From Candidatus Magnetaquiglobus chichijimensis (GTDB taxonomy: Bacteria > Pseudomonadota > Magnetococcia > Magnetococcales > Magnetaquicoccaceae), in contig NZ_BAAFGK010000002.1 in NCBI RefSeq assembly GCF_045865675.1, positions 435,989-467,988 of the forward strand: 32,000 nt of DNA, in the 5' to 3' direction. Shown in pieces: positions 21,701 through 32,000 of this stretch. How positions within the stretch are numbered: the first letter of the stretch is position 1; each line of letters starts with the position of its first letter. The position numbers and the translations under genes are program-made. A model generated the notes under the pieces. The model made no database searches. It saw nothing but the letters and a program-made list of their open reading frames with translations, and was not told where the DNA came from.

Positions 21701-23571
21701 GACTTGTATTTTCGATCGTTTTTATAATAAGCATTTTGCGCATTTTTTTTGCGAAAAATGCGCAAGCGCGCGACGGCATTGCAAACCCTGCCAAGCAACT
21801 TTCATGATAAAAACCATCCAGACAACGGAATCGAGAAAGTATCAGACAGCCTGATGACTGATCTGAACGGTTACGGAATTTTCTCTCCAATTTGGTATTG
21901 TATCCCCGGAAGTATAATGGTTTTTTAATTATTTTGCATTCTTATTATTTTTTAGTGCTCGCGTTGCAGGCGTTAAAAAATAAGAATAAATGGATTGATG
22001 GTTGTCTTTGTCTTCTATTTTATTGAGGTCTAGGCTGTTATCGTTGATTGCTCTTATAATATTCCAAGCTGTTCTTTTATGATTGCCTGCTCCATCAATA
22101 ATATCCACGCTCAAGAGTTCACCTGTAATCGGCATGTCCTTAATTGCCTTTGTATAATTGCCAGGAAAAGATCGTACCCAGGCTTCTGAAATCCAAACGA
22201 GACCAAAAGCTTTTAGCGTAATTATTCTATCTGCAATATATCTCGAAAATATAAATTTATCAGAATGATCTTCGAATTGTGTACCAATAAAATCTACAAG
22301 CTTCCAGTTTTCGTTAAATAAAAATAGTATTGAAATATGATGACCGTAATTATGAAATATCTTTTCGGCCGTCGTAACATGGAACTCAAAAATATTTTCC
22401 AAATTTGTCAATTGCAGTTTATTGCTATTGTGCGCATCAATAAAAACCTGGTTTGGCTTGAAATTACGACATAAACGAACTGATTCTGACTTCACAGAAT
22501 ATTGTTTTCTATTATTAAGTTTGAGATATTTTATGCGATTGTTATTTTCAAATAAGTTTTTTAACTCTAAAGGTTTTTTAATGCTTTTATCTAAATAAAT
22601 TTTTAGATGATCCGCTAGACTTCTACAACAATCAAAAATTCGTGCATAAACATAAACAAGAGCTTCTAATAATTCTCTTTGTTTAAGAGATGATGTAACC
22701 CATTGTCTTTCAATTTTGATTACAGCAGATTTTGAAATTCCAGTAGGTAGATTCTTTTGGGTAAAGCGTACTAATTTTTTTAAGCCTGCATTTAATAGCT
22801 CTGATTTTTCAGTATTAATAATGATGTCTTTTTCTTCAAGATGAGAGAAAATGAGTGACAATTTGAGAGAACTATGTAAATCCAGGTCACCTTCTTTTTC
22901 TATAACATTTCGTGCGTCCTTGGCCCACGTCATTACTTCGTCTGACTCCCATGCATTTCTAACTTCGTTTGTATACCAAACATCAAAATTTGGGATTGAC
23001 TCTTTGTTCTTTTGAATAATAAAAGTTACTGTCCGAGATGTTTGTAAAAAATTATTTGTATTTTTTCTAAACATGTCTGGTTCCATATAGTTCCGGAAAC
23101 AATACTCAAGATCGATTGATAAATCCTTCAATCTTTTTTCCCAAGGTTTCATGTCGCATGGATCCAATTTTTTAGATGTTAGCAATACTGATCAAAAAAG
23201 CATTTAACAATTAACATCTTGGCATTATATTTATAATAATGTTTTGGAGTTAATTTTGCAATGAAAATTCATGTTGGTTCGGTTTCAGATCGGGGATGCA
23301 TGGGGATGGGATCAAATACCTTTGGGGATGTTGAATTTTCTTGGAATGGAGCAGATAGGATGAGGCGGCCTGTGCCTATTTCAGATCGCCAAACTGTGGA
23401 TGGGCCAAGGCACCACCCCGAGGTGACCGGTGGGGCGAGCGCGTCCGTTTTGATTAAGAGAAATGCGCTTTTGTAAAGCGCGTCAAAGGATAAAGGTTAA
23501 AGGCTGACACTAAGGTATGGAAACGAAAAAAAGTTAATAATAACAAATATAAAGTCTAAAGTCACAATCCT
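21693..23571. other. Low-GC (about 30% by eye) genomic islet between the convergent htpG and PKS genes
   Basis: There is an abrupt compositional switch. A sampled line at 22021..22080 has 20/60 G+C, against 43/60 at 24001..24060. The islet holds a single long ORF and is bracketed by the inverted 25-bp repeats. Confidence 0.75.
21929..23185 (-). CDS. Orphan hypothetical protein encoded in the low-GC islet. No family recognised.
   Basis: It is the only long ORF in the islet: 418 aa from TTG 23185, or 407 aa from the first ATG at 23152. It is Lys/Asn/Ile-rich, consistent with AT-rich coding. The N-terminal half looks helical and the C-terminal half beta-rich. I saw no transposase (DDE, HUH), integrase, RT or NTPase motifs. 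Confidence 0.7.
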   Translation of the reverse strand: MLTSKKLDPCDMKPWEKRLKDLSIDLEYCFRNYMEPDMFRKNTNNFLQTSRTVTFIIQKNKESIPNFDVWYTNEVRNAWESDEVMTWAKDARNVIEKEGDLDLHSSLKLSLIFSHLEEKDIIINTEKSELLNAGLKKLVRFTQKNLPTGISKSAVIKIERQWVTSSLKQRELLEALVYVYARIFDCCRSLADHLKIYLDKSIKKPLELKNLFENNNRIKYLKLNNRKQYSVKSESVRLCRNFKPNQVFIDAHNSNKLQLTNLENIFEFHVTTAEKIFHNYGHHISILFLFNENWKLVDFIGTQFEDHSDKFIFSRYIADRIITLKAFGLVWISEAWVRSFPGNYTKAIKDMPITGELLSVDIIDGAGNHKRTAWNIIRAINDNSLDLNKIEDKDNHQSIYSYFLTPATRALKNNKNAK

Positions 23572-23674: not shown

Positions 23675-26600
23675 TCAGGAGATCTGCGCCATGGTGCTCA
23701 TCAACTCCTGCAACAACAACGCCTCGGCCTCGTCGTCGGAGAGCGCCGCCACCGCCTGATCCGGAGCGGGCGCGGCATCGGTCGGGACAGTCTGTTCGCC
23801 GGTGTCCGGGAAGAGGCTGGTCATGAGGAAGTTGGCCAGGGCGTCGATGGTGGGATAGTTGAACACCAGCGACGAGCCCAGGGAGAGTCCCACTTCGGCC
23901 TCGAGCTTGTTCTTGAGTTCGACCGCGGTCAGGGAGTCGATGCCCAGATCGAACAGCTGCACATGCGGGAGCACCCGCTCCAGATTCGGAATGCCCAAGA
24001 CCTTGGCGACCAGGGCGCGGATGTGATCCACCAGCAGATCCCGGCGCGCCCCTTCCGGAGCGTCGTTCAGCTCTCCCCGGAGTTGGGAGCCTCCCTTGTG
24101 ACCCGCCTGGGCATCGCTGGCGATCAGCGGCGAAAAACGTGGCACCCGCGTGGCGCCGGGATTCACCTGGGCAAAGCTCTCCCACTCGACGTGCAACACC
24201 CCCAACTGGGCCGGATTCCAGCGCAGCACCCGGGCAAAGGCGTTCAAGGCCTGGGCCATGGCGATGGGATGGATGCCGCCACGCCGCAGACGCTGCTCCA
24301 CCTCCTTGTCGCGTGCGGCCATGCCCACCTCCCCCAATGCCCCCCAGTTGATGCTGGTGCCGGGCAGGCCCATGGCGCGGCGGGCGTGGGCCAGGCCGTC
24401 GAGGAAGGCGTTGGCGGCCACGTAGTTGGCCTGGCCGGCATTGCCGATCAGGGAAGAGACCGACGAGAACAGCACGAAGAAATCGAGCGGCAACGATTGG
24501 GTGGCCAGATGAAGATGCCAGGCGCCCAGAGCCTTGGGTTCGAGCACCCGGCGCATGCGGACCGGATCCAGATCCGGAATCAGGCCGTCGTCGAGGACGG
24601 CGGCGGCATGGATGACGCCGCGCAGCGGTGGCATGGCGTTGCCGATGCGCTGGATCAGCCGGTTCACCTCGTTGGCGTTGGTCACGTCCATGGCCACGGC
24701 CATCACCCGTACCCCCTGGGCCTCCAGACGGGCCACGGCCTGTCTGGCCTCCTCCGAGGCCGCTCCCTTGCGACCGGTCAAAACCAACTGTCGCACCCCC
24801 TGATTGCCCATCCAGAAGGCCAGTTCCAGGCCGAAACTGCCGAAACCGCCGGTGATCAGATAGCTCCCGTCGGCGTGGAACAGGGGTGGTTCCTGACGCG
24901 GCGGGAGGATGGTCATCGGTCCGGTGCCGCGCATGTCGAGCACCGCCTTGCCGAGCTGGCCGGATTGGACGTGCTCGAAGGCTTCGCCCGCCCGGTCCGC
25001 CGGGAAGACGTGGGTCTGGATCGGCTTGAAGGTGCCGTTGGCGAACTGCTCGGAGATCTCCTCGAGCAGTGCCGGCATGATATCCTTGCGCCGGGCCAGA
25101 TGGTCCAGGTCCACGGACATGAAACTGGCGTTGCGCTCCACGCTGGCCAGGTTCCAGGTGGCATCCTTGCGGGCCGCGAACTCGCCCAATTCGACGAACC
25201 GTCCGAATGGCGCCAGGGCCTGCACGCTCTTCTGTCCAGCCTCGCCGCCCAGGGTGTTGAAGATCACATCCACGCCGTGGTCATCGGTCGCGGCCATGAT
25301 TTGTTCGACATAGACCGGGAAACGGCTGTCGAAGACATGTTTGAGGCCGAGGGAGCGCAGATACTTGCGCTTTTCCGGCGAGTCGGCGGTGACGAAGAGC
25401 TCCGCGCCGCGCCACTGGGCCACCTGGATGGCGGCCAGTCCCATGTCTCCATGGGCGCCATGGATCAGAACCTTTTCCCCCGAGCCGGAATAGGAGCGGA
25501 ACAGGCCGAAATAGGCGGTCAGAAAGGCCATCGGCAGCCCGCCGCACGCCGCGTCGCCGATTCCGGCGGGTCGCGGCATGGTCCAGATCGACTTGACCGG
25601 CAAGGTGACATGCGACCGGAATCCACCCGGCAGGATCGCCAGGACCGCCTCGCCGCGTTTGGGCGCGGTGACGCCGGGACCGGTGCGGGCCACCACGCCG
25701 GAGATCTCCATGCCGATGCCATCGCCGAAGAAACTCTTCGCCGAGCCGCTCTCCGGATCGCGTTGGGTCAGGCGCAACACGTCACGCATGCCGATGCCGG
25801 CGGCATGCACCTCGATTTCGATCTCGCCTGGACCGGGCGGACGCCGTTCGCAGGCGCGCAGCCGCAGCGAGGAGAGCGCTCCCGGACGTCCGATCTCCAG
25901 CGCGAAGGGGGGGCGCATGGTGGGATCGTCCGTGACCGGCTGGGTGTTCTGGGTGAGGACCGCCGACGCCTCGCGCACCATCCGGTTGACCAGCCGTTCG
26001 CCGTCGCGCCAGGCCACTTCGCTCTCCGCCGAGTCGGCCAGAACCTCTACGGCGATGGCCGCCAGGGAGCCGGTTTCCTCCCGGGGATCCAGATCGAGCA
26101 CCGTGGCGCGCAGATTGGGCTGTTCGCTCAAACTCACCCGCGCCAGACCCACCAGCGCGGCTTGATGCAGACCGGAGAGGGGTGCACCGTCATGGACCGG
26201 TTGGGCTCCGCGCGTCACCACATAGAGACGCGGCGGGGGCAGGGCGCGTCCGGTCGGGTTCTCACCCTTGGTCAGGGTTTGGATCAGGCTCAACGTGTCG
26301 TTGACCGACCGGATGCCGACCGGATCGGTCGTCTGGGTCGCGTCGAAGTCGCTCCACAGGGCGATCACCGCCCGACATGGGCCGGTTTGATGGAACACCG
26401 CTTCCAGGTGGTGATTCGGGATGCGGATCAGATCCGGATGGGGGGAGTCGAGTTGGGCGAGGGTCTTATCGCGCACCACCCGCACCACCCGCGCCGCGCC
26501 GCGTCCGGTCAACTCCCTGGCCAACGCGTCGCCGGTCTGGCCGGCATCCTCCAGCACCAGAATCGGCAGATCACGCGACTCCGGCGCGAGCAGCCCCGAA

Positions 26601-29600
26601 GGGAGCGGTTCGGCCTGGGGCTCCCAGGCGAGCCCATGGAGCCAGGCATCCAGATGGGCGGCATCGTCCTCCTCTTGTCCTTTGGGCAGCGCCTTGCAGC
26701 GCAGCTTCTCCAGCGCCACGAAGATCCGGCCATCCCGGTCGCACAGGGTCAGGTCACACTCGATGAAACGGTCGTTGGTCTCCGTGACCAGCAAATGGCA
26801 CCAGAAGGGGGTGGTCGGCGTGGCGTAAAAACGCAGACGCTGGATCCCGACCGGCAGATAGAGCCCGGCATCGGCCTTCATGGTCACCATCAATGCCTGG
26901 AAGCAGGCGTCCAGCAACGATGGATGCAACCGGTAGGCGTCATCCGCCGCGCTCCAGGCGTCGTGGGCCGCCACCTCGACCAGCACCGCGTTTTCGCAGC
27001 GCATCAATTGCTTCAATCCCCGGAACCAGGGTCCGTAATGGAGTCCCATGCCATCCAGTTGCGCGTACACCGTGTCGATGTCCACCTTCTCGGCGCAGAA
27101 TCGACGAATGGCGCCCAGATCCAGATGACCGGCCTCGCCGATCCCCTCCGAGGAGATCACCCCCGAGGCGTGCAGCGACCAGCGATCCGATTGATCCTGT
27201 CGCTGTCCGTGCACGGTGTAGCGGTGCTGACCCGGATCAAAGGCGATGTGCAACTGCACGTCGCCGCTCGTCCCCAGGACCATGGCCTGATGAAAACGGA
27301 GCGACTCCAACAGGCAGGGGGCATCGTCGTTCAAGGCGCGGTGGATCGCCAGTCCGATCTCCACATACCCCGCGCCCGGAAAGACCACCGACCCTTCCAC
27401 CTGGTGATCGCGCACGAAGGGCACCAGGTCGATGTTGATCTGGCTCTCCCAGGCCGGCGAGGGGGTGTTGACCCGTTGGGCCAACAGGGCATGCTCCACC
27501 TGGTAGAGCCGGTCGAACAGCGCCGCCTGGCTCTCCGGCCAGTAGCGTTCCCGCTGCCACGGATAAAGAGGCAGTTCCAGATGCTGCTCGAAAGATTCGG
27601 GATAGAGCCGGCTCCAGTCGAGGGGATAGCCGAAGGTGTGGAGCTTGCCCAGACAGTCGAGCACCGTGGCCCGCTCGGGCTTGCCGCGATTCAACGTGAA
27701 CAACGTTTCGCCCGGGGCGCCGGCGTGTGTCAGACACTCCTTGATCGAGGTGCCCAGCACCGGATGCGGGCCGATCTCGATGAACAGACCGTACCCATCG
27801 GCGATCAGGGATTGAATCGCCGCCGCGAAGAGCACCGGTTCGCGCAGGTTGTCGCACCAGTAATCGGCGTTCCAGTTGGCTTGCGTCACCTGTTTGCCCG
27901 TCACCGTGGAGTAGAGCGGCAGGGTGGGCACGCGGGGATTCAGAGGCTGCAACGCGGTGCGCAGTTCCGGTTTCAAGGGGTCCATGGCCGGGCTGTGATA
28001 GGGGATATCCACCCGCAGGAAGCGGTTGAAGACCCCTCGCTCCGTAAGCTCGCTGGCGATCGCTTCGAGTGCCTCGGCATCGCCGGCCAGATTGGTGGCG
28101 TTGGGGCTGTTGATCGCCGCCACCACCACCTTGCCGCCGTGGGGGGCCAGGACCGTCGGACACTCGTCGGGTTTCAGCCCCACCGCCAGCATCCGTCCCG
28201 CGCCCACCGCCCGTTGTTGCAGGTGGCTGCGATGATAGCTCACCAGCACCGCGTCCTCCAGGCTCAAGACGCCGGCGAGATAGGCTGCCGACACCTCGCC
28301 GAGGCTGTGACCGACGATGGCCGCCGGTTCCACCCCCCAGGCGCGCAGCATGGCCACCAGACCCAGTTGCACCACGAAGTTGCCCGGTTGGGCAAACTGG
28401 GTTTCGGTAATGCGTGATTCCGCCTCCGGACGGCTCATCTCTTCCAGGATCGACCAGCCGCAGACCTTTTGCAACAACCGGTCGATGGTCTCGGCGGTCT
28501 GCCGGAAGATTGGCTCTTCGGCCAGCAGTTGCCGCCCCATGGCCCACCATTGGGGACCCATGCCGGTGAGCACGTAGACCGGGCGCCGGACCTGCCCGGC
28601 GTTGAGTTTGGTGGCGGACAGGGGCAGGGCGTCCGGAGCGGAGAACGCCTTGAGTTGCTCGATCAGGCTCGCCTTGGAGTCGGCCACGATGGCCAGGCGG
28701 CGATCCAGATGGGTGCGGTGGACGCCGGCGGCCCGTCCCAGGTGGGGCAGGGCGGGGGTGTTTTCCTGCTCCAACAGCGCGAGCCAGCGTTTGGCCAGGG
28801 CCTTAAGCCCCCCCTCGCAGCCTGCCGAAAGGGGGATCAGCCAGGGTTTGCCGTCTTCGGCGACCGTTGGACGGGCCGGAATCTCCGGGGCCTGGGAGAG
28901 GATCGCGTGGGCATTGGTGCCGCCGTAGCCAAAGGAGTTGACCCCGACGAAGGCCGGTCCGTCGCCCTCGGGAAGGGGTTGGGCGGTGCGAGCCACCTTC
29001 AGGCGCAGCTCGTTGAAGGGGATGCGCGGATTGAACTCCTGGAGGTTGGCCTGGGGCGGGATTTGACCATGGGCCAGGGTGAGGGTGGCCTTGATGAGTC
29101 CGGCGACGCCGGCGGCGGCTTCCAGGTGACCGATGCTGGATTTGACCGAACCGACGAAACAGGGTTGATCCGCCGGGCGACCCTGGCCATAGACCGCGCC
29201 CAGGGCCTTGCACTCCGTGGGATCGCCCAGGGCGGTGCCGGTGCCGTGGGCCTCGATGTAGCGAATGCGTTTCGGATCGATCCGGCCATCCGCGCACACC
29301 TTTTCGATCAACGCCTGTTGGGCCGGACCGCTCGGCACGGTGATGCCGTTGGTGTGACCATCCTGGTTGGCGCCGGTGGCATGCACCAGGGCGTAGATGT
29401 GGTTGCCGTCGCGCTGGGCCGCGGAGAGCGGTTTCACCAGCACGATGCCGGCCCCCTCGCCGCGTCCATAGCCATCCCCTCGGGCGTCGAAGCTCTTGCT
29501 GCGTCCGTCGGCGGCCAGGAACTGCCCCTTGTGCAAGGCGATGTTGTACTCCGGTCGGATCATCAGGTTGACCCCGCCGGTCACGGCCATGGAACACTCG

Positions 29601-30259
29601 CCGTTCCACACCGCCTGGCAGGCCTGATGGAAGCTCACCAGCGACGAGGAGCAGGCGGTATCCATGGCGATGCTCGGGCCGAGCAGATTGAAGGCGTGGG
29701 AGATGCGGTTGGCCAGCATGGCCAGGTTCACGCCGATGGCCGAGCTGTTGTTGAGCTGGAGCCGGTTCAGGGGGCTCAAGGTGATGGCGGTGAAATCCTG
29801 CATGAAGCCGCCGATGTAGACCCCGGTATTCGAGCCGTTGAGCCGCTCCATGTCCAGACCCGCGTCCTCGCATGCCTCCCACGTCACCTCCAGCAGCAGC
29901 CGTTGTTGCGGATCCATGGCCTGGGCATCGCGGGGCGAGATGCCGAAGAAGAGCGGATCGAAGCCGTCGATGTTGGTTTGCAGAAACCCTCCGTGGCGTA
30001 CCGGCATTTTTCCGGGACGGTTGGGATCCGTATCCGCGAAGCGACCCAGATTCCAGCGTTCCGGCGGGGTTTCGATCACCCCGTCGCGCCCTTCGATGAG
30101 CATGCGCCAGTATTCGGCCCGGCTGTGGGATCCGCCGGGGAAGCGGCAGCCGATGCCGATGATGGCCAGAGGCTCGCGCGGCGGGCGGCGGGTGGAGGGG
30201 GTTTGGGCGGTTTGATGAGCGTTATCCATGAGCTTCCATCTCGTGCAATCGAAATTCAT
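23675..30259 (-). CDS. Type I polyketide synthase, single fully reducing module KS-AT-DH-ER-KR-ACP
   Basis: 2194 aa. An alternative ATG at 30229 has a better GGAAG RBS. Approximate domain coordinates:
- KS 28892..30175: 'DTACSSSLV' with Cys203, 'EAHGTGT', 'GHLEAAAG'.
- AT 27620..28582: 'GHSLGEVSAAY', and FabD-like 'IPYHSPAM', suggesting malonyl.
- DH 26675..27517: 'HQVEGSVVFPGAGYVE'.
- ER 24932..25912: 'LIHGAHGDMGLAAIQVAQ'.
- KR 24320..24871: 'YLITGGFGSFGLELA', 'NYVAANAFLD'.
- ACP 23810..24052: 'LGIDSLTAVEL'.
There is no thioesterase or reductase release domain. Confidence 0.95.
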   Translation of the reverse strand: MNFDCTRWKLMDNAHQTAQTPSTRRPPREPLAIIGIGCRFPGGSHSRAEYWRMLIEGRDGVIETPPERWNLGRFADTDPNRPGKMPVRHGGFLQTNIDGFDPLFFGISPRDAQAMDPQQRLLLEVTWEACEDAGLDMERLNGSNTGVYIGGFMQDFTAITLSPLNRLQLNNSSAIGVNLAMLANRISHAFNLLGPSIAMDTACSSSLVSFHQACQAVWNGECSMAVTGGVNLMIRPEYNIALHKGQFLAADGRSKSFDARGDGYGRGEGAGIVLVKPLSAAQRDGNHIYALVHATGANQDGHTNGITVPSGPAQQALIEKVCADGRIDPKRIRYIEAHGTGTALGDPTECKALGAVYGQGRPADQPCFVGSVKSSIGHLEAAAGVAGLIKATLTLAHGQIPPQANLQEFNPRIPFNELRLKVARTAQPLPEGDGPAFVGVNSFGYGGTNAHAILSQAPEIPARPTVAEDGKPWLIPLSAGCEGGLKALAKRWLALLEQENTPALPHLGRAAGVHRTHLDRRLAIVADSKASLIEQLKAFSAPDALPLSATKLNAGQVRRPVYVLTGMGPQWWAMGRQLLAEEPIFRQTAETIDRLLQKVCGWSILEEMSRPEAESRITETQFAQPGNFVVQLGLVAMLRAWGVEPAAIVGHSLGEVSAAYLAGVLSLEDAVLVSYHRSHLQQRAVGAGRMLAVGLKPDECPTVLAPHGGKVVVAAINSPNATNLAGDAEALEAIASELTERGVFNRFLRVDIPYHSPAMDPLKPELRTALQPLNPRVPTLPLYSTVTGKQVTQANWNADYWCDNLREPVLFAAAIQSLIADGYGLFIEIGPHPVLGTSIKECLTHAGAPGETLFTLNRGKPERATVLDCLGKLHTFGYPLDWSRLYPESFEQHLELPLYPWQRERYWPESQAALFDRLYQVEHALLAQRVNTPSPAWESQINIDLVPFVRDHQVEGSVVFPGAGYVEIGLAIHRALNDDAPCLLESLRFHQAMVLGTSGDVQLHIAFDPGQHRYTVHGQRQDQSDRWSLHASGVISSEGIGEAGHLDLGAIRRFCAEKVDIDTVYAQLDGMGLHYGPWFRGLKQLMRCENAVLVEVAAHDAWSAADDAYRLHPSLLDACFQALMVTMKADAGLYLPVGIQRLRFYATPTTPFWCHLLVTETNDRFIECDLTLCDRDGRIFVALEKLRCKALPKGQEEDDAAHLDAWLHGLAWEPQAEPLPSGLLAPESRDLPILVLEDAGQTGDALARELTGRGAARVVRVVRDKTLAQLDSPHPDLIRIPNHHLEAVFHQTGPCRAVIALWSDFDATQTTDPVGIRSVNDTLSLIQTLTKGENPTGRALPPPRLYVVTRGAQPVHDGAPLSGLHQAALVGLARVSLSEQPNLRATVLDLDPREETGSLAAIAVEVLADSAESEVAWRDGERLVNRMVREASAVLTQNTQPVTDDPTMRPPFALEIGRPGALSSLRLRACERRPPGPGEIEIEVHAAGIGMRDVLRLTQRDPESGSAKSFFGDGIGMEISGVVARTGPGVTAPKRGEAVLAILPGGFRSHVTLPVKSIWTMPRPAGIGDAACGGLPMAFLTAYFGLFRSYSGSGEKVLIHGAHGDMGLAAIQVAQWRGAELFVTADSPEKRKYLRSLGLKHVFDSRFPVYVEQIMAATDDHGVDVIFNTLGGEAGQKSVQALAPFGRFVELGEFAARKDATWNLASVERNASFMSVDLDHLARRKDIMPALLEEISEQFANGTFKPIQTHVFPADRAGEAFEHVQSGQLGKAVLDMRGTGPMTILPPRQEPPLFHADGSYLITGGFGSFGLELAFWMGNQGVRQLVLTGRKGAASEEARQAVARLEAQGVRVMAVAMDVTNANEVNRLIQRIGNAMPPLRGVIHAAAVLDDGLIPDLDPVRMRRVLEPKALGAWHLHLATQSLPLDFFVLFSSVSSLIGNAGQANYVAANAFLDGLAHARRAMGLPGTSINWGALGEVGMAARDKEVEQRLRRGGIHPIAMAQALNAFARVLRWNPAQLGVLHVEWESFAQVNPGATRVPRFSPLIASDAQAGHKGGSQLRGELNDAPEGARRDLLVDHIRALVAKVLGIPNLERVLPHVQLFDLGIDSLTAVELKNKLEAEVGLSLGSSLVFNYPTIDALANFLMTSLFPDTGEQTVPTDAAPAPDQAVAALSDDEAEALLLQELMSTMAQIS

Positions 30260-30296
30260 TCAGCGCGATGTTCCAGCATTGGTGCGCGCGGGTCTG

Positions 30297-31373
30297 TCAC
30301 TCCGGGATCACCGGCATCTCGGTGAAGCGTCCGTCGTGGTTCTTGAGCAGATAGCGGGTCTCGTTTTTGTCCACGATCGCATCGTTGGTCAGAAGGGAGA
30401 TCTTGCCGATGTTGGTGGCGATCACGTAGAGCGGCTGGGCCAGTCCGGTGGTGTGACCGCGCAGGGCATCGCGGATCAGTTCCGAGCCTTTTTCCAGCGG
30501 GGTGCGGAAGTGATCGATGCCCGGTGCCGCCTCGCAATAGAAAAGATAATAGGGACGCACGCGGATGCTCAAGAGTTTTTGATGCAGCTCGCGGAAAACC
30601 GGCACCGTGTCGTTGATCCCCTTGAGCAGCACCGCCTGATTGCCGACGTTGATCCCGCAGGTGGTCAGGTCATAGACCGCGCGGGCGGTGAGTTCGGTGA
30701 TCTCGCGCGGGTGGTTGATCTGGGTGTTGACCCAGATGGGAACCTTGTGATATCCGGACAATTTTTTCATCAGCGAGGCATCGATGCGTTGCGGCAGCAC
30801 CACCGGCAGGCGCGAACCGAAGCGGATCATCTCGATGTGTGGGATCTCCCGCAGCCGGCGGAGGATGTATTCGATCTCGTCGTCGTTGAGCAGCAGGGGA
30901 TCGCCGCCGGTGATCAGCACGTCGCGGACCTCCGGGTGGTCGGCGATCCAGTTGAGGCCCTCGTCCACGTCCAGGCGCAGTTTGAGCACCTTGTCGATGG
31001 TCACCTCGCGCCGGAAGCAGTGGCGACAGTAGATGCCGCAGGTTTGGGTCACCGCGAAGGCCACCCGGTCGCGATACTGGCGGGCGATCGAATCGGGACG
31101 CTTCTCCTCGGTGCTCCGGTTCTCTTTCCAGACCAGATACCCTTCCATGCCCAACTCGTTCTGGAACTCGAGCATGGAGGGGATCACCTGCTTGCGGATC
31201 GGGCAGTTGGGGTCATCCTTGTCCATCAGGCTGGCGAAATAGGGGGTAGTCCCCCAGCGGGTGTGTTTGTGGGCGAGAATGGCTTCCCGTTCCGCAGGGG
31301 TGACGTTGATGAATTTTTCGAGCTTTTCCAGTGTGTTGACGTGATTTTTGAGTTGCTCTCGCCATGCGTTCAT
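30297..31373 (-). CDS. KamA-family radical SAM aminomutase (lysine 2,3-aminomutase-like)
   Basis: 358 aa. 'TTPYFASLMDKDDPNCPIRKQVIPS' matches the KamA N-terminal signature. The radical SAM motif CGIYCRHC is encoded at 31017..31040. 'GINVGNQAVLLKGINDT' is also present. It ends 37 nt upstream of the PKS ORF on the same strand. Confidence 0.85.
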   Translation of the reverse strand: MNAWREQLKNHVNTLEKLEKFINVTPAEREAILAHKHTRWGTTPYFASLMDKDDPNCPIRKQVIPSMLEFQNELGMEGYLVWKENRSTEEKRPDSIARQYRDRVAFAVTQTCGIYCRHCFRREVTIDKVLKLRLDVDEGLNWIADHPEVRDVLITGGDPLLLNDDEIEYILRRLREIPHIEMIRFGSRLPVVLPQRIDASLMKKLSGYHKVPIWVNTQINHPREITELTARAVYDLTTCGINVGNQAVLLKGINDTVPVFRELHQKLLSIRVRPYYLFYCEAAPGIDHFRTPLEKGSELIRDALRGHTTGLAQPLYVIATNIGKISLLTNDAIVDKNETRYLLKNHDGRFTEMPVIPE

Positions 31374-31573
31374 TGCGTGATTACCGCTCGTTTTTTGGGG
31401 GGGCTGGGGCGGGTGTTCGATCTGTTGGAAGGGGTTGAATGATCAAGTGTTCCCTTGCCTATTTATATTCCATGATAGACCCTTTTGCGAGGGAATTGAA
31501 TCTTTTTTTTGCCATGGGTCGGGAATTGTCAATGATTATAATACTGATTCTCAATCCTTGTCGGATGGATTGT

Positions 31574-31843
31574 TTATCGATTACACACCAGTATTGTCAG
31601 AGCTGTCCGCCATCCAAGCAGAAGATTGGACCCATCCGTGGTCAGGGAGGGTTCAAGGGATTTGGGTTGAATGGGTTCTACCGCCAGATGGGTCTTGATC
31701 TGGCGTTCGGACAATTCGTTGCGTTTCTGTTCTGCCAACAGGTCATCGTTGAAGGTCAGGGCGCGGACCGGGTTGTCTTGCCGGATGAAAGCGCAATTTT
31801 GCCGGAGATCGGCCTTGGCTGCGTCGGCAATGACGACATCCAT
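31574..31843 (-). pseudogene. ParE/RelE-family toxin-like ORF, probably degenerate
   Basis: The N-terminal 40 aa, 'MDVVIADAAKADLRQNCAFIRQDNPVRALTFNDDLLAEQ', follow the ParE pattern (A..DL..I..YI..DNP.AA..F...L). The C-terminal half lacks the usual conserved basic and aromatic/His residues. Upstream, a short ORF with an RHH-like 'ERSITLPSD' strand is interrupted by a stop or frameshift. Confidence 0.35.
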
Positions 31844-32000
31844 GTCAGCAGGTATTGCCGCATCTCTTCACGCACCTGCTCCGGCGCGGACCTGACTGGC
31901 CCTGTCGGATGGGAGCGTGATGGAGCGTTCGGCGTCTGGCATGGGCGGGTTCTGGAACACGATCATGGAAGGTGAACGCAGGTCCGATTCTAGACAACCT

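What the first reader, a model, noticed from the sequence alone, without database searches (positions are those of the whole stretch)
23675..31373. KamA-family aminomutase directly upstream of a stand-alone fully reducing type I PKS
A radical SAM 2,3-aminomutase homologue (CxxxCxxC at 31017..31040) ends 37 nt before a 2194-aa KS-AT-DH-ER-KR-ACP synthase on the same strand. There is no terminator-like structure between them, which suggests one transcript. KamA enzymes make beta-amino acids (beta-lysine, beta-arginine, beta-glutamate). A single module with a complete reductive loop resembles iterative MAS-like or FAS-like PKSs that build saturated chains.

Within this window the pair lacks a loading module, adenylation enzyme, acyltransferase for amide formation, or thioesterase. 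It is therefore unclear how a beta-amino acid and a reduced polyketide would be joined. The product could be a beta-amino-acid-primed or N-acylated lipid, or the two genes may simply be neighbours. I do not recognise this pairing as a described pathway.
Basis: partly seen in the sequence, partly recalled or inferred. Interest (0 to 1): 0.65.

Follow-up and report, generated by a model that had tools for sequence, protein, structure and literature searches.

The report
Aminomutase glued to lipopeptide starter PKS
A radical-SAM amino-acid mutase of an uncharacterised type sits directly in front of the first fatty-chain-building module of a split lipopeptide assembly line in uncultured magnetotactic cocci, so the pair is a real, conserved part of a larger, undescribed natural-product pathway and not a self-contained two-gene system.

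Summary
A 358-aa KamA-family gene (30297-31373, minus strand; CxxxCxxC at 31017-31040) ends 37 nt before a 2194-aa KS-AT-DH-ER-KR-ACP synthase (23675-30259), with no terminator between them.

The synthase is not stand-alone.
- The window ends just short of an SGNH-like gene, a carbamoyltransferase, a lipoprotein S12 D-peptidase homologue and an NRPS (C-FkbH-T-C-A-T-E).
- Its real partner lies on another contig: KS-AT-ACP-aminotransferase-C-A-T (iturin MycA-like), followed by an NRPS.
- In three other Magnetococcales genomes that partner directly follows the PKS.
- Docking-like termini are conserved in both layouts.

Within the genus, the aminomutase, PKS1 and PKS2 co-occur in 8 genomes. All three were missing from 5. 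One 57%-complete genome has PKS2 only.

The aminomutase fails every NCBIfam equivalog model (lysine, arginine, glutamate, EpmB). It belongs to a compact clade found in bacteria and archaea, with Glu and Ala in place of LAM Asp293 and Asp330. Outside Magnetococcales, none of 76 loci has a PKS. These loci instead carry glnHPQ and glutamine synthetase genes, which suggests a glutamine or glutamate substrate. Another agent of this scan reached the same reading on other DNA.

Whether its product enters the lipopeptide is inferred, not shown (about 0.55).

The parts
30297..31373 (-). KamA-family radical SAM/PLP 2,3-aminomutase homologue, 358 aa, of the 'Glu-293' clade
   Evidence: TIGR00238 scores 288.9 bits (cut-off 199.2), and no equivalog model is reached. 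It aligns with 2A5H at E 1.4e-92. It falls in a compact clade in the tree.
31017..31040 (-). CxxxCxxC [4Fe-4S]/SAM motif (Cys112, Cys116, Cys119)
   Evidence: Read directly from the sequence.
30531..30533 (-). Glu281, aligned with LAM Asp293 (a substrate side-chain contact); Glu in all scoreable clade members
   Evidence: MAFFT column read-out over 102 sequences; pairwise alignment.
30402..30419 (-). Ala319 to Lys324: Ala/Thr replace LAM Asp330/Ala331, and Lys324 corresponds to the PLP lysine 337
30260..30296 (-). 37-nt KamA-PKS1 spacer with no minus-strand terminator-like hairpin
31525..31564 (-). Two overlapping sigma-70-like -35/-10 matches upstream of KamA, inside a variable 643-nt spacer
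   Evidence: consensus match only. The spacer is about 270 nt in G013 and G007 and 819 nt in L032.
23675..30259 (-). PKS1: KS-AT-DH-ER-KR-ACP, 2194 aa, the first module of the assembly line
   Evidence: Pfam. Motifs DTACSS, GHSLGE, HxxxGxxxxP, LDD and GIDSL are present.
29042..30175 (-). KS domain (residues 29-406)
27629..28579 (-). AT domain (residues 561-877); GHSLGE and an IPYH variant, malonyl-like by motif recollection
26669..27493 (-). DH domain (residues 923-1197)
24938..25834 (-). ER domain (residues 1476-1774); its nucleotide-binding glycine motif is degenerate (HGAHGDMG) and varies among orthologues
24332..24868 (-). KR domain (residues 1798-1976), LDD (B-type) motif
23825..24025 (-). 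ACP (residues 2079-2145)
23678..23752 (-). C-terminal docking-like helix LSDDEAEALLLQELMSTMAQIS
   Evidence: Conserved in 7 orthologues, whether or not PKS2 is adjacent.
31374..32000 (-). Spacer running to the window edge. The rest of the locus lies BEYOND the window on the same strand. Positions are C2 position minus 435988: SGNH-like 723-aa gene 32017-34188; carbamoyltransferase 34192-36186; S12 lipoprotein 36302-38365; NRPS1 (C-FkbH-T-C-A-T-E) 38382-46418. PKS2 and NRPS2 are at G000:C4:1748740-1765175.

Best explanation
The two genes are the aminomutase and the first chain-building module of a split hybrid PKS-NRPS lipopeptide pathway. The pathway is confined to one group of uncultured Magnetococcales.

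Proposed route:
- PKS1 extends an acyl primer with malonate and reduces it. Its ER motif is atypical, so full saturation is not certain.
- PKS1 hands the chain, through its C-terminal docking helix, to PKS2 (KS-AT-ACP-aminotransferase-C-A-T; contig C4 in this genome).
- PKS2 makes a beta-amino fatty acyl unit, as MycA does in iturin and mycosubtilin, and couples it to a first amino acid.
- NRPS2 (C-A-T-C-A-T-E) adds Thr-like and Cys-like residues.
- In five of the eight genus genomes that carry KamA, a cassette just upstream of KamA adds a glycerate-derived unit, a Tyr-like residue and tailoring. That cassette comprises NRPS1 (C-FkbH-T-C-A-T-E), an S12 lipoprotein peptidase, a carbamoyltransferase and an SGNH-like protein.
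- KamA converts an alpha-amino acid to its beta-isomer as a building block for this line. Gene context elsewhere suggests glutamine or glutamate. A cationic amino acid is not excluded, because the pocket residue is Glu. The best candidate acceptor is the PKS2 A domain, whose unassigned specificity code keeps a conserved Glu239.

Shown: the gene order, domains, synteny, co-occurrence and clade membership. Inferred: co-transcription, the PKS1-to-PKS2 hand-off, the KamA substrate and its incorporation.
For: Adjacency. KamA and PKS1 are adjacent in G000, G003, G005, G007, G010, G011, G012, G013 and in MAGs L032 and L034, even though the flanks differ. Upstream lies unk723 in G000, Blac in G003, and gyrB in G012.

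Co-occurrence in 14 genus genomes. KamA, PKS1 and PKS2 are present in the same 8 genomes and were not found in 5. G008 is only 57% complete and has PKS2 only.

PKS1 to PKS2 link.
- PKS2 and NRPS2 orthologues (58-64% identity over long alignments in G003 and G042; 77% over the 291 aa held for G041) directly follow PKS1 in G003 and G041. In G042 they follow after a 4.7-kb insert.
- PKS2 domains include Aminotran_3 between the ACP and the C domain.
- The PKS1 tail and the PKS2 head are conserved in both split and contiguous layouts.

KamA lies among pathway genes. In G042 the order is NRPS1, Blac, KamA and then a contig end, with PKS1 at the start of another contig. In G041 it is Blac-DUF599-KamA followed by a tripartite efflux pump.

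The KamA gene looks functional. The Cys motif, Arg134 and the PLP Lys are kept, and its branch in the tree is short.

Other supply routes exist for other uses. Lysine-type (Asp/Asp) and EpmB-like paralogues lie elsewhere in the genome.

Candidate acceptor. The PKS2 A code is DFEG..(V/I)TK in three genomes.
Against: KamA is an ordinary, slowly evolving member of a clade that has no PKS or NRPS in any of 76 loci outside Magnetococcales. There it looks like a primary-metabolism or compatible-solute enzyme.

In G041, KamA and PKS1-PKS2 are on different contigs. In GCA_015229045, KamA follows SDF-Blac with no adjacent PKS.

No A domain could be shown to prefer a beta-amino acid. Co-occurrence among close kin may only reflect shared inheritance of one island.

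Chain release is unexplained. Both NRPSs end in E-type domains and no TE was found. The A-MT-T-R module near NRPS2 has a patchy distribution.

No FAAL or discrete ACP was found to prime PKS1.
Confidence: 0.55

Rival explanations
1. Hitch-hiker. KamA is a compatible-solute or primary-metabolism enzyme, for example for beta-glutamine, as in the rest of its clade. It merely lies on the same accessory island as PKS1. Adjacency and co-occurrence then reflect linkage and common descent, not shared chemistry.
For: The clade is 64-73% identical across bacteria and halophilic methanogens and is never next to a PKS outside Magnetococcales. Its neighbours there are glnHPQ, whose binding protein scores 264 bits to E. 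coli GlnH, and GlnA or GS-like genes. No sequence change sets the Magnetococcales copies apart. KamA is unlinked from the PKS in G041 and has no adjacent PKS in GCA_015229045. A promoter-like site lies in front of KamA.
Against: The adjacency survives at least three different rearrangements of the flanks, with gaps of 5-55 nt. PKS1's own functional partner, PKS2, is often far away. Among the genomes searched (40 relatives and 76 loci elsewhere), KamA-clade copies in Magnetococcales were always found with PKS, NRPS, Blac or efflux genes. The glnHPQ and GS partners seen elsewhere are not next to it here.
Confidence: 0.27
2. KamA belongs to the pathway but its product is not loaded by an A domain. 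The free beta-amino acid serves instead as the off-loading nucleophile or as a late tailoring substituent. It could be attached by the stand-alone C protein, by the SGNH-like protein, or, after export, by the S12 enzyme acting as a transpeptidase.
For: No TE is present and both NRPSs end in E-type domains. Blac and KamA are adjacent in the basal arrangements G003, G042 and GCA_015229045. A T-like/C protein exists at C4:1772549.
Against: Blac is missing from G005 and G012, and unk723 from G003 and G012, although these genomes keep KamA-PKS1. No precedent was tested here.
Confidence: 0.1
3. An iterative MAS/FAS-like PKS and the aminomutase together make a beta-amino-acid-primed or N-acylated lipid without other enzymes.
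For: In G012 the pair sits alone next to dnaN-recF-gyrB. The reductive loop is complete by domain content.
Against: PKS1 has no loading or release domain and carries a conserved docking tail. It is followed by PKS2 in three genomes. G012 also has PKS2 elsewhere. The Pks2/MAS model is not reached.
Confidence: 0.06

Closest known systems
Iturin/mycosubtilin-type and cyanobacterial (puwainaphycin, nostophycin) beta-amino fatty acid lipopeptide assembly lines
   Same: PKS2 has the hallmark KS-AT-ACP-aminotransferase-C-A-T order. It is preceded by a reducing PKS elongation module and followed by NRPS modules.
   Different: No FAAL or ACP loading module and no TE were found. The pathway is split over two loci in this genome. 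A radical SAM aminomutase, an FkbH-containing NRPS, a carbamoyltransferase and a periplasmic S12 lipoprotein are associated with it. The host is Magnetococcales. The comparison with named clusters rests on my knowledge of their published architectures, because antiSMASH and MIBiG could not be run.
KamA-type aminomutases embedded in biosynthetic clusters (VioP in viomycin, BlsG in blasticidin S, IdnL4 in incednine; PMC11284099 for the macrolactam cases)
   Same: A radical SAM/PLP 2,3-aminomutase gene lies inside or next to NRPS/PKS genes and is presumed to supply a beta-amino acid.
   Different: This protein reaches none of the lysine, arginine or glutamate equivalog models. It has Glu and Ala at the two side-chain-binding positions. 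The VinN/VinM/VinK-type starter-unit machinery is absent.
Lysine 2,3-aminomutase (C. subterminale KamA, PDB 2A5H; AblA of methanogens)
   Same: Same fold and cofactor motifs: CxxxCxxC, Arg134 and the PLP Lys337.
   Different: Asp293 is Glu and Asp330 is Ala. It is shorter (358 aa against 416) and lacks the C-terminal extension. The AblA model scores 332 bits (cut-off 525). A true Asp/Asp paralogue exists elsewhere in the genome.
Zwittermicin A / colibactin-type clusters (FkbH/ACAD/HCDH extender-unit genes, carbamoyltransferase, periplasmic S12 prodrug peptidase ZmaM/ClbP)
   Same: Nearby are a stand-alone FkbH domain protein flanked by acyl-CoA dehydrogenase and 3-hydroxyacyl-CoA dehydrogenase homologues, a carbamoyltransferase and an exported S12 hydrolase.
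   Different: There is no discrete ACP, no N-acyl-D-Asn module and no transmembrane ClbP-type C-terminus. Membership was not tested beyond domain content.

Membership tests
KamA family radical SAM/PLP aminomutases (TIGR00238) | Subfamily HMM above the curated cut-off | tested here: met
   288.9 bits, cut-off 199.2.
KamA family radical SAM/PLP aminomutases (TIGR00238) | CxxxCxxC cluster motif, carboxylate-binding Arg134 and PLP-binding Lys337 (LAM numbering) | tested here: met
   Cys112/116/119, Arg121 and Lys324 align with the LAM residues.
Lysine 2,3-aminomutase (LAM/AblA, TIGR03820) | Asp293 and Asp330, which bind the epsilon-ammonium group; equivalog cut-off | tested here: not met
   Glu and Ala at these positions. 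332.1 bits, cut-off 525.4.
Glutamate 2,3-aminomutase (Eam, TIGR04368) | Equivalog cut-off; Lys/Asn at the two positions (recalled from Ruzicka and Frey 2007, not checked here) | tested here: not met
   332.7 bits, cut-off 650. The residues are Glu/Ala.
Arginine 2,3-aminomutase (BlsG type, TIGR04468) | Equivalog cut-off | tested here: not met
   This is the best-scoring equivalog model and has a similar length (351 positions), but it scores 365.6 bits (cut-off 600).
EpmB (EF-P beta-lysylation, TIGR03821) | Equivalog cut-off | tested here: not met
   207.1 bits, cut-off 369.3. A different paralogue at C4:713553 scores 353.
Fully reducing type I PKS module | KS, AT, DH, ER, KR and ACP domains with catalytic motifs | tested here: met
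   Pfam domains. DTACSS, GHSLGE, HxxxGxxxxP, LDD and the KR Tyr, and GIDSL are present. Caveat: the ER glycine-rich NADPH motif is degenerate and varies among orthologues.
MAS/Pks2-like iterative stand-alone PKS | Equivalog HMM; acts without a downstream PKS partner | tested here: not met
   Pks2_ls1_myc scores 1251 bits (cut-off 2400). The partner PKS2 is adjacent in G003, G041 and G042, and the docking tail is conserved.
Beta-amino fatty acid lipopeptide synthetases (MycA type) | KS-AT-ACP-aminotransferase-C-A-T in one protein | tested here: met
   PKS2 at G000:C4:1748740-1757058.
Beta-amino fatty acid lipopeptide synthetases (MycA type) | Fatty acyl-AMP ligase/ACP loading and TE release | tested here: not met
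   No additional adenylate-forming motif and no discrete carrier protein near either locus. No TE appeared in any scanned protein.
Aminomutase as a true pathway member (supplies a building block) | The product is activated by a pathway A domain, or the metabolite is lost on deletion | not testable with these tools
   Only context is available: adjacency, co-occurrence and the unassigned PKS2 A code DFEG..TK.

The most novel reading that the evidence does not exclude
The Glu-293 clade is a previously unrecognised glutamine (or glutamate) 2,3-aminomutase, long sought as a source of the beta-glutamine and beta-glutamate solutes of halophilic methanogens. Magnetococcales have recruited it to place a beta-glutamine-type residue into a beta-amino-fatty-acid lipopeptide. 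That would be the first natural product built with this enzyme type and the first assembly-line metabolite of magnetotactic cocci.
Probability: 0.2. Interest if true: 0.7.

Novelty: new variant of a known kind. Interest (0 to 1): 0.5.

Why it matters
Cultured magnetococci were reported to have no PKS or NRPS genes (PMC4306944). This locus shows that a group of uncultured relatives carries a sizeable, conserved and modular lipopeptide pathway.

It also gives a second, independent genomic context for an uncharacterised, very widespread KamA clade whose substrate is unknown. If the product structure were solved, it would reveal that substrate.

The optional C...E cassette (NRPS1), apparently inserted between E-to-C junctions, and the splitting of one assembly line over two loci with retained docking termini, are useful natural examples for assembly-line engineering.

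Tried and rejected
- Lysine, arginine, glutamate and EpmB identity for KamA: rejected on HMM cut-offs and active-site residues.
- Iterative MAS-like PKS: rejected.
- Riboswitch or leader RNA upstream of KamA, here and in 7 clade loci: nothing found except tRNAs.
- Discrete ACP for the FkbH/ACAD/HCDH trio and a FAAL for PKS1: none found by motif scan.
- Search for non-Magnetococcales relatives of the PKS2 AMT-C-A-T part, to see whether they also carry the aminomutase: swamped by generic NRPSs, with the closest at about 40% identity, so uninformative.
- SurE-like (PBP-type thioesterase) release by the beta-lactamase-fold protein after the T-E terminus: considered, but the protein has a conserved lipoprotein signal and is therefore probably periplasmic. 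It is kept only as a remote possibility.
- The A-MT-T-R module at C4:1775150 as the universal terminator: its distribution (G000, G007, G008, G011, G012) does not match the core set.
- Literature searches found no description of this pairing or of the clade's substrate.
- Structure prediction and fold search were not used.
- A-domain substrate names (Tyr, Thr, Cys, Pro-like) come from my memory of published specificity codes, not from a predictor.
Full report
**1.

The window has a 358-aa ORF at 30297..31373 and a 2194-aa ORF at 23675..30259, both on the minus strand. Pfam places KS, AT, DH, ER, KR and ACP along the large protein in that order.

The small protein passes the KamA subfamily model, at 288.9 bits (cut-off 199.2). 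It aligns end to end with Clostridium lysine 2,3-aminomutase 2A5H.

- The three cysteine codons lie at 31040..31017.
- The KamA stop and the PKS ATG are 37 nt apart.
- The terminator scan finds nothing on the minus strand in that gap.
- The catalytic motifs of KS, AT, DH, KR and ACP are intact.
- The ER nucleotide-binding glycine motif is degenerate and differs among orthologues. 'Fully reducing' is therefore true by domain content but not assured by chemistry.

**2. The window cuts the locus**

The window is G000:C2:435989-467988 of a 4.19-Mb, 5-contig Magnetococcales genome.

Sixteen nucleotides past the window end, on the same strand and upstream of KamA, lie four more genes:
- A 723-aa protein with no Pfam or NCBIfam hit. 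Its relatives are named SGNH/GDSL hydrolases, and by eye it shows GES, GNN and DxxH blocks.
- A NodU/CmcH-type carbamoyltransferase.
- A 687-aa lipoprotein with an S12 beta-lactamase-fold domain. Its nearest solved relatives are D-stereospecific peptidases.
- A 2678-aa NRPS with the order C, FkbH domain (307 bits, cut-off 147), T, C, A, T and a terminal E-type domain. The HGRE and RTVGWF motifs occur only in that last domain.

The NRPS A-domain code, read against GrsA numbering, is DASTIAAVCK. I recall this as a tyrosine code.

A divergent operon includes an acyl-CoA dehydrogenase, a stand-alone FkbH protein and a 3-hydroxyacyl-CoA dehydrogenase. No discrete ACP was found for them.

**3. PKS1 has a partner**

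G000 carries a second locus on contig C4:
- PKS2 (1748740-1757058) has the order KS-AT-ACP-class III aminotransferase-C-A-T.
- NRPS2 (1757055-1765175) has a TubC-type docking domain followed by C-A-T-C-A-T-E.

In G003 (Magnetococcus sp. YQC-5) and G041 (HA3dbin3), orthologues of PKS2 directly follow PKS1. In G042 (C5_bin.1) they follow after a 4.7-kb insert. NRPS2 orthologues come next in G003 and G042. Identity to the G000 proteins is 58-64% over long alignments in G003 and G042, and 77% over the 291 aa held for G041.

The PKS1 C-terminal tail, (L/I)S(D/E)(D/E)EAE(A/T)LLL(Q/E)EL, is conserved in most orthologues, and the PKS2 N-terminal head, LSxVKQALLA, in those available, whether the genes are adjacent or on separate contigs.

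PKS1 is therefore best read as the first elongation module feeding a MycA-like beta-amino-fatty-acid module. It is not a stand-alone iterative synthase. The Pks2/MAS equivalog model is also not reached.

**4. Synteny and co-occurrence**

KamA directly precedes PKS1 in G000, G003, G005, G007, G010, G011, G012 and G013 and in MAGs L032 and L034. The gaps are roughly 5-55 nt, although the upstream neighbour differs.

| Gene | Genus genomes with it (of 14) |
|---|---|
| KamA orthologue (at least 74% identity) | 8 |
| PKS1 orthologue (at least 62% identity) | the same 8 |
| PKS2 | the same 8, plus G008 (57% complete) |
| S12 lipoprotein | 6 of the 8 |
| SGNH-like protein | 5 of the 8 |

None of KamA, PKS1 and PKS2 was found in 5 other genomes. 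The genomes are close kin, so these counts are not independent events.

There are two exceptions to adjacency:
- In G041, KamA sits in Blac-DUF599-KamA followed by a tripartite efflux pump, while PKS1-PKS2 are on another contig.
- In GCA_015229045 the order is SDF transporter-Blac-KamA with no adjacent PKS. That genome could not be searched.

NRPS1 starts with a C domain and ends with an E domain, and NRPS2 ends with an E domain. NRPS1 could therefore be an optional cassette inserted at an E-to-C junction. This is inference.

**5. What the aminomutase is**

It reaches none of the NCBIfam equivalog models:

| Model | Bits | Cut-off |
|---|---|---|
| Arginine 2,3-aminomutase | 366 | 600 |
| Glutamate 2,3-aminomutase | 333 | 650 |
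| AblA (lysine) | 332 | 525 |
| EpmB | 207 | 369 |

Compared with LAM, it keeps Arg134 and the PLP lysine. It has Glu for Asp293 and Ala-Thr for Asp330-Ala331.

Across 102 aligned family members, about 90 sequences of its clade share this signature: Glu in every one that could be scored, with a single Ala-to-Ser exception. In a tree they form one compact clade on a long stem. The Magnetococcales copies are nested inside it on short branches.

The clade is 64-73% identical across Desulfobacterota, Chlorobia, Gammaproteobacteria, Leptospirales, Bacillota and the halophilic methanogens Methanohalophilus, Methanosalsum and Methanolobus.

None of the 76 loci outside Magnetococcales has the PKS, NRPS or S12 gene. 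The recurrent neighbours are:
- a glnHPQ-type ABC importer in 18 loci, whose binding protein scores 264 bits to E. coli glutamine-binding protein and about 87 bits to the Lys/Arg/Orn binding protein;
- glutamine synthetase or GS-like genes in 15 loci, including a true GlnA at 483 bits (cut-off 429);
- in some Desulfuromonadales, a second KamA-type gene plus a GNAT acetyltransferase.

Methanohalophilus is a known producer of beta-glutamine (PMC1224877). I infer that the clade most likely acts on glutamine or glutamate. The conserved Glu would equally suit a cationic side chain, and no assay exists.

An earlier agent of this scan reached the same reading on Desulfobacterota DNA (e1-2498622). These are not independent evidence.

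The genome has three other KamA paralogues:
- an Asp/Asp lysine-type gene next to a Ddl-like ATP-grasp gene;
- an EpmB-like gene scoring 353 bits (cut-off 369);
- one with Arg at position 293.

**6. How it probably works, and how sure I am**

I consider it about 0.8 likely that KamA and PKS1 are co-transcribed and that PKS1 feeds PKS2.

Whether the KamA product enters the metabolite is inferred only from persistent adjacency through several rearrangements and from co-occurrence. I put this at about 0.55-0.6.

The best candidate acceptor is the PKS2 A domain. Its code is DFEGHGDVTK in G000, DFEGIVGITK in G003 and DFEGSGGVTK in G042. I cannot assign this code. It keeps Asp235 and a conserved Glu239.

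The other A-domain codes, assigned from memory:

| A domain | Code | Resembles |
|---|---|---|
| NRPS2, first | DFWNIGLVHK | Thr |
| NRPS2, second | DLFNIALTYK | Cys |
| NRPS1 | DASTIAAVCK | Tyr |
| A-MT-T-R module at C4:1775150 | DVQAIAQV- (last position not read) | Pro |

Several points remain unexplained:
- Chain priming: no FAAL or loading ACP was found.
- Release: no TE was found, and the A-MT-T-R module has a patchy distribution.
- The role of the periplasmic S12 enzyme. Prodrug cleavage at a D-residue, as ClbP and ZmaM do, is possible but untested.

The main rival, at about 0.27, is that KamA is simply a solute or primary-metabolism gene riding on the same island.

**7. Known or new**

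Aminomutase genes inside NRPS/PKS clusters are known, and so are reducing-PKS plus aminotransferase-PKS lipopeptide lines. What is new:
- this aminomutase clade appearing in such a setting;
- the combination with an FkbH-NRPS, a carbamoyltransferase and an S12 lipoprotein;
- the host group, given that cultured magnetococci were reported to lack PKS and NRPS genes (PMC4306944).

I class it as a new variant of a known kind, with interest 0.5.

**Limits**
- antiSMASH and MIBiG were not available.
- No reference sequences of BlsG or Eam were at hand, so their active-site residues are recalled, not checked.

Noticed in passing
G000:C2:486052-489220 (window-extrapolated 50064-53232, + strand): An acyl-CoA dehydrogenase, a stand-alone FkbH domain protein (279 bits, cut-off 147) and a 3-hydroxyacyl-CoA dehydrogenase lie in a row. 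This is the gene set of hydroxymalonyl/methoxymalonyl-ACP extender-unit synthesis, but no discrete ACP was found nearby. The trio follows DUF697, SPFH and a periplasmic binding protein, and the arrangement is conserved in G013 and G007.
   Followed up: partly
window 24938-25834 (PKS1 ER domain), residues 1598-1614: The ER NADPH-binding glycine motif is degenerate and differs in every orthologue (HGAHGDMG, HSAHCGMG, HAAHSGMG, HTAHCAIG, HEADSAVG; canonical form HAAAGGVG). The ER may be impaired or atypical.
   Followed up: partly
G000:C2:534971-537390: A lysine-type KamA paralogue (Asp/Asp retained, 466 aa with an N-terminal extension; AblA model 395 bits, cut-off 525) overlaps by a few bases a D-Ala-D-Ala-ligase-like ATP-grasp gene. 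The pair could make and ligate beta-lysine.
   Followed up: no
L037, L039, L057, L076, L078, L085 (Desulfuromonadales and Desulfobacterales loci): In some of these and similar Desulfuromonadales loci (shown), the 438-aa 'AblA-like' gene next to the Glu-293 clade gene is paired with a GNAT. It has Met at LAM position 293 and Gly/Ala-His at positions 330/331, not the two Asp. It is probably not a lysine aminomutase.
   Followed up: no
G000:C4:1772549-1779493: Seven kb downstream of NRPS2 lie a carrier-like/C protein (558 aa), an SDR and an A-MT-T-R reductive-release module (code DVQAIAQV, Pro-like). A P-type ATPase and an ABC exporter follow. Orthologues occur only in G007, G008, G011 and G012, so the link to the main line is uncertain.
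   Followed up: partly
window 21929-23185 and 31439-32000: A 30%-GC single-gene islet lies directly downstream of PKS1. PKS2 follows PKS1 at the corresponding position in G003 and G041. The spacer upstream of KamA is 643 nt here, about 270 nt in G013 and G007, and 819 nt in L032.
   Followed up: no
G010:C143:2727-4868: The SGNH-like gene orthologue in G010 carries one in-frame TGA.
   Followed up: no
G000:C2:489601-499386: A 3261-aa protein with bacterial cadherin-like and Big_9 repeats lies directly after the FkbH trio.
   Followed up: no
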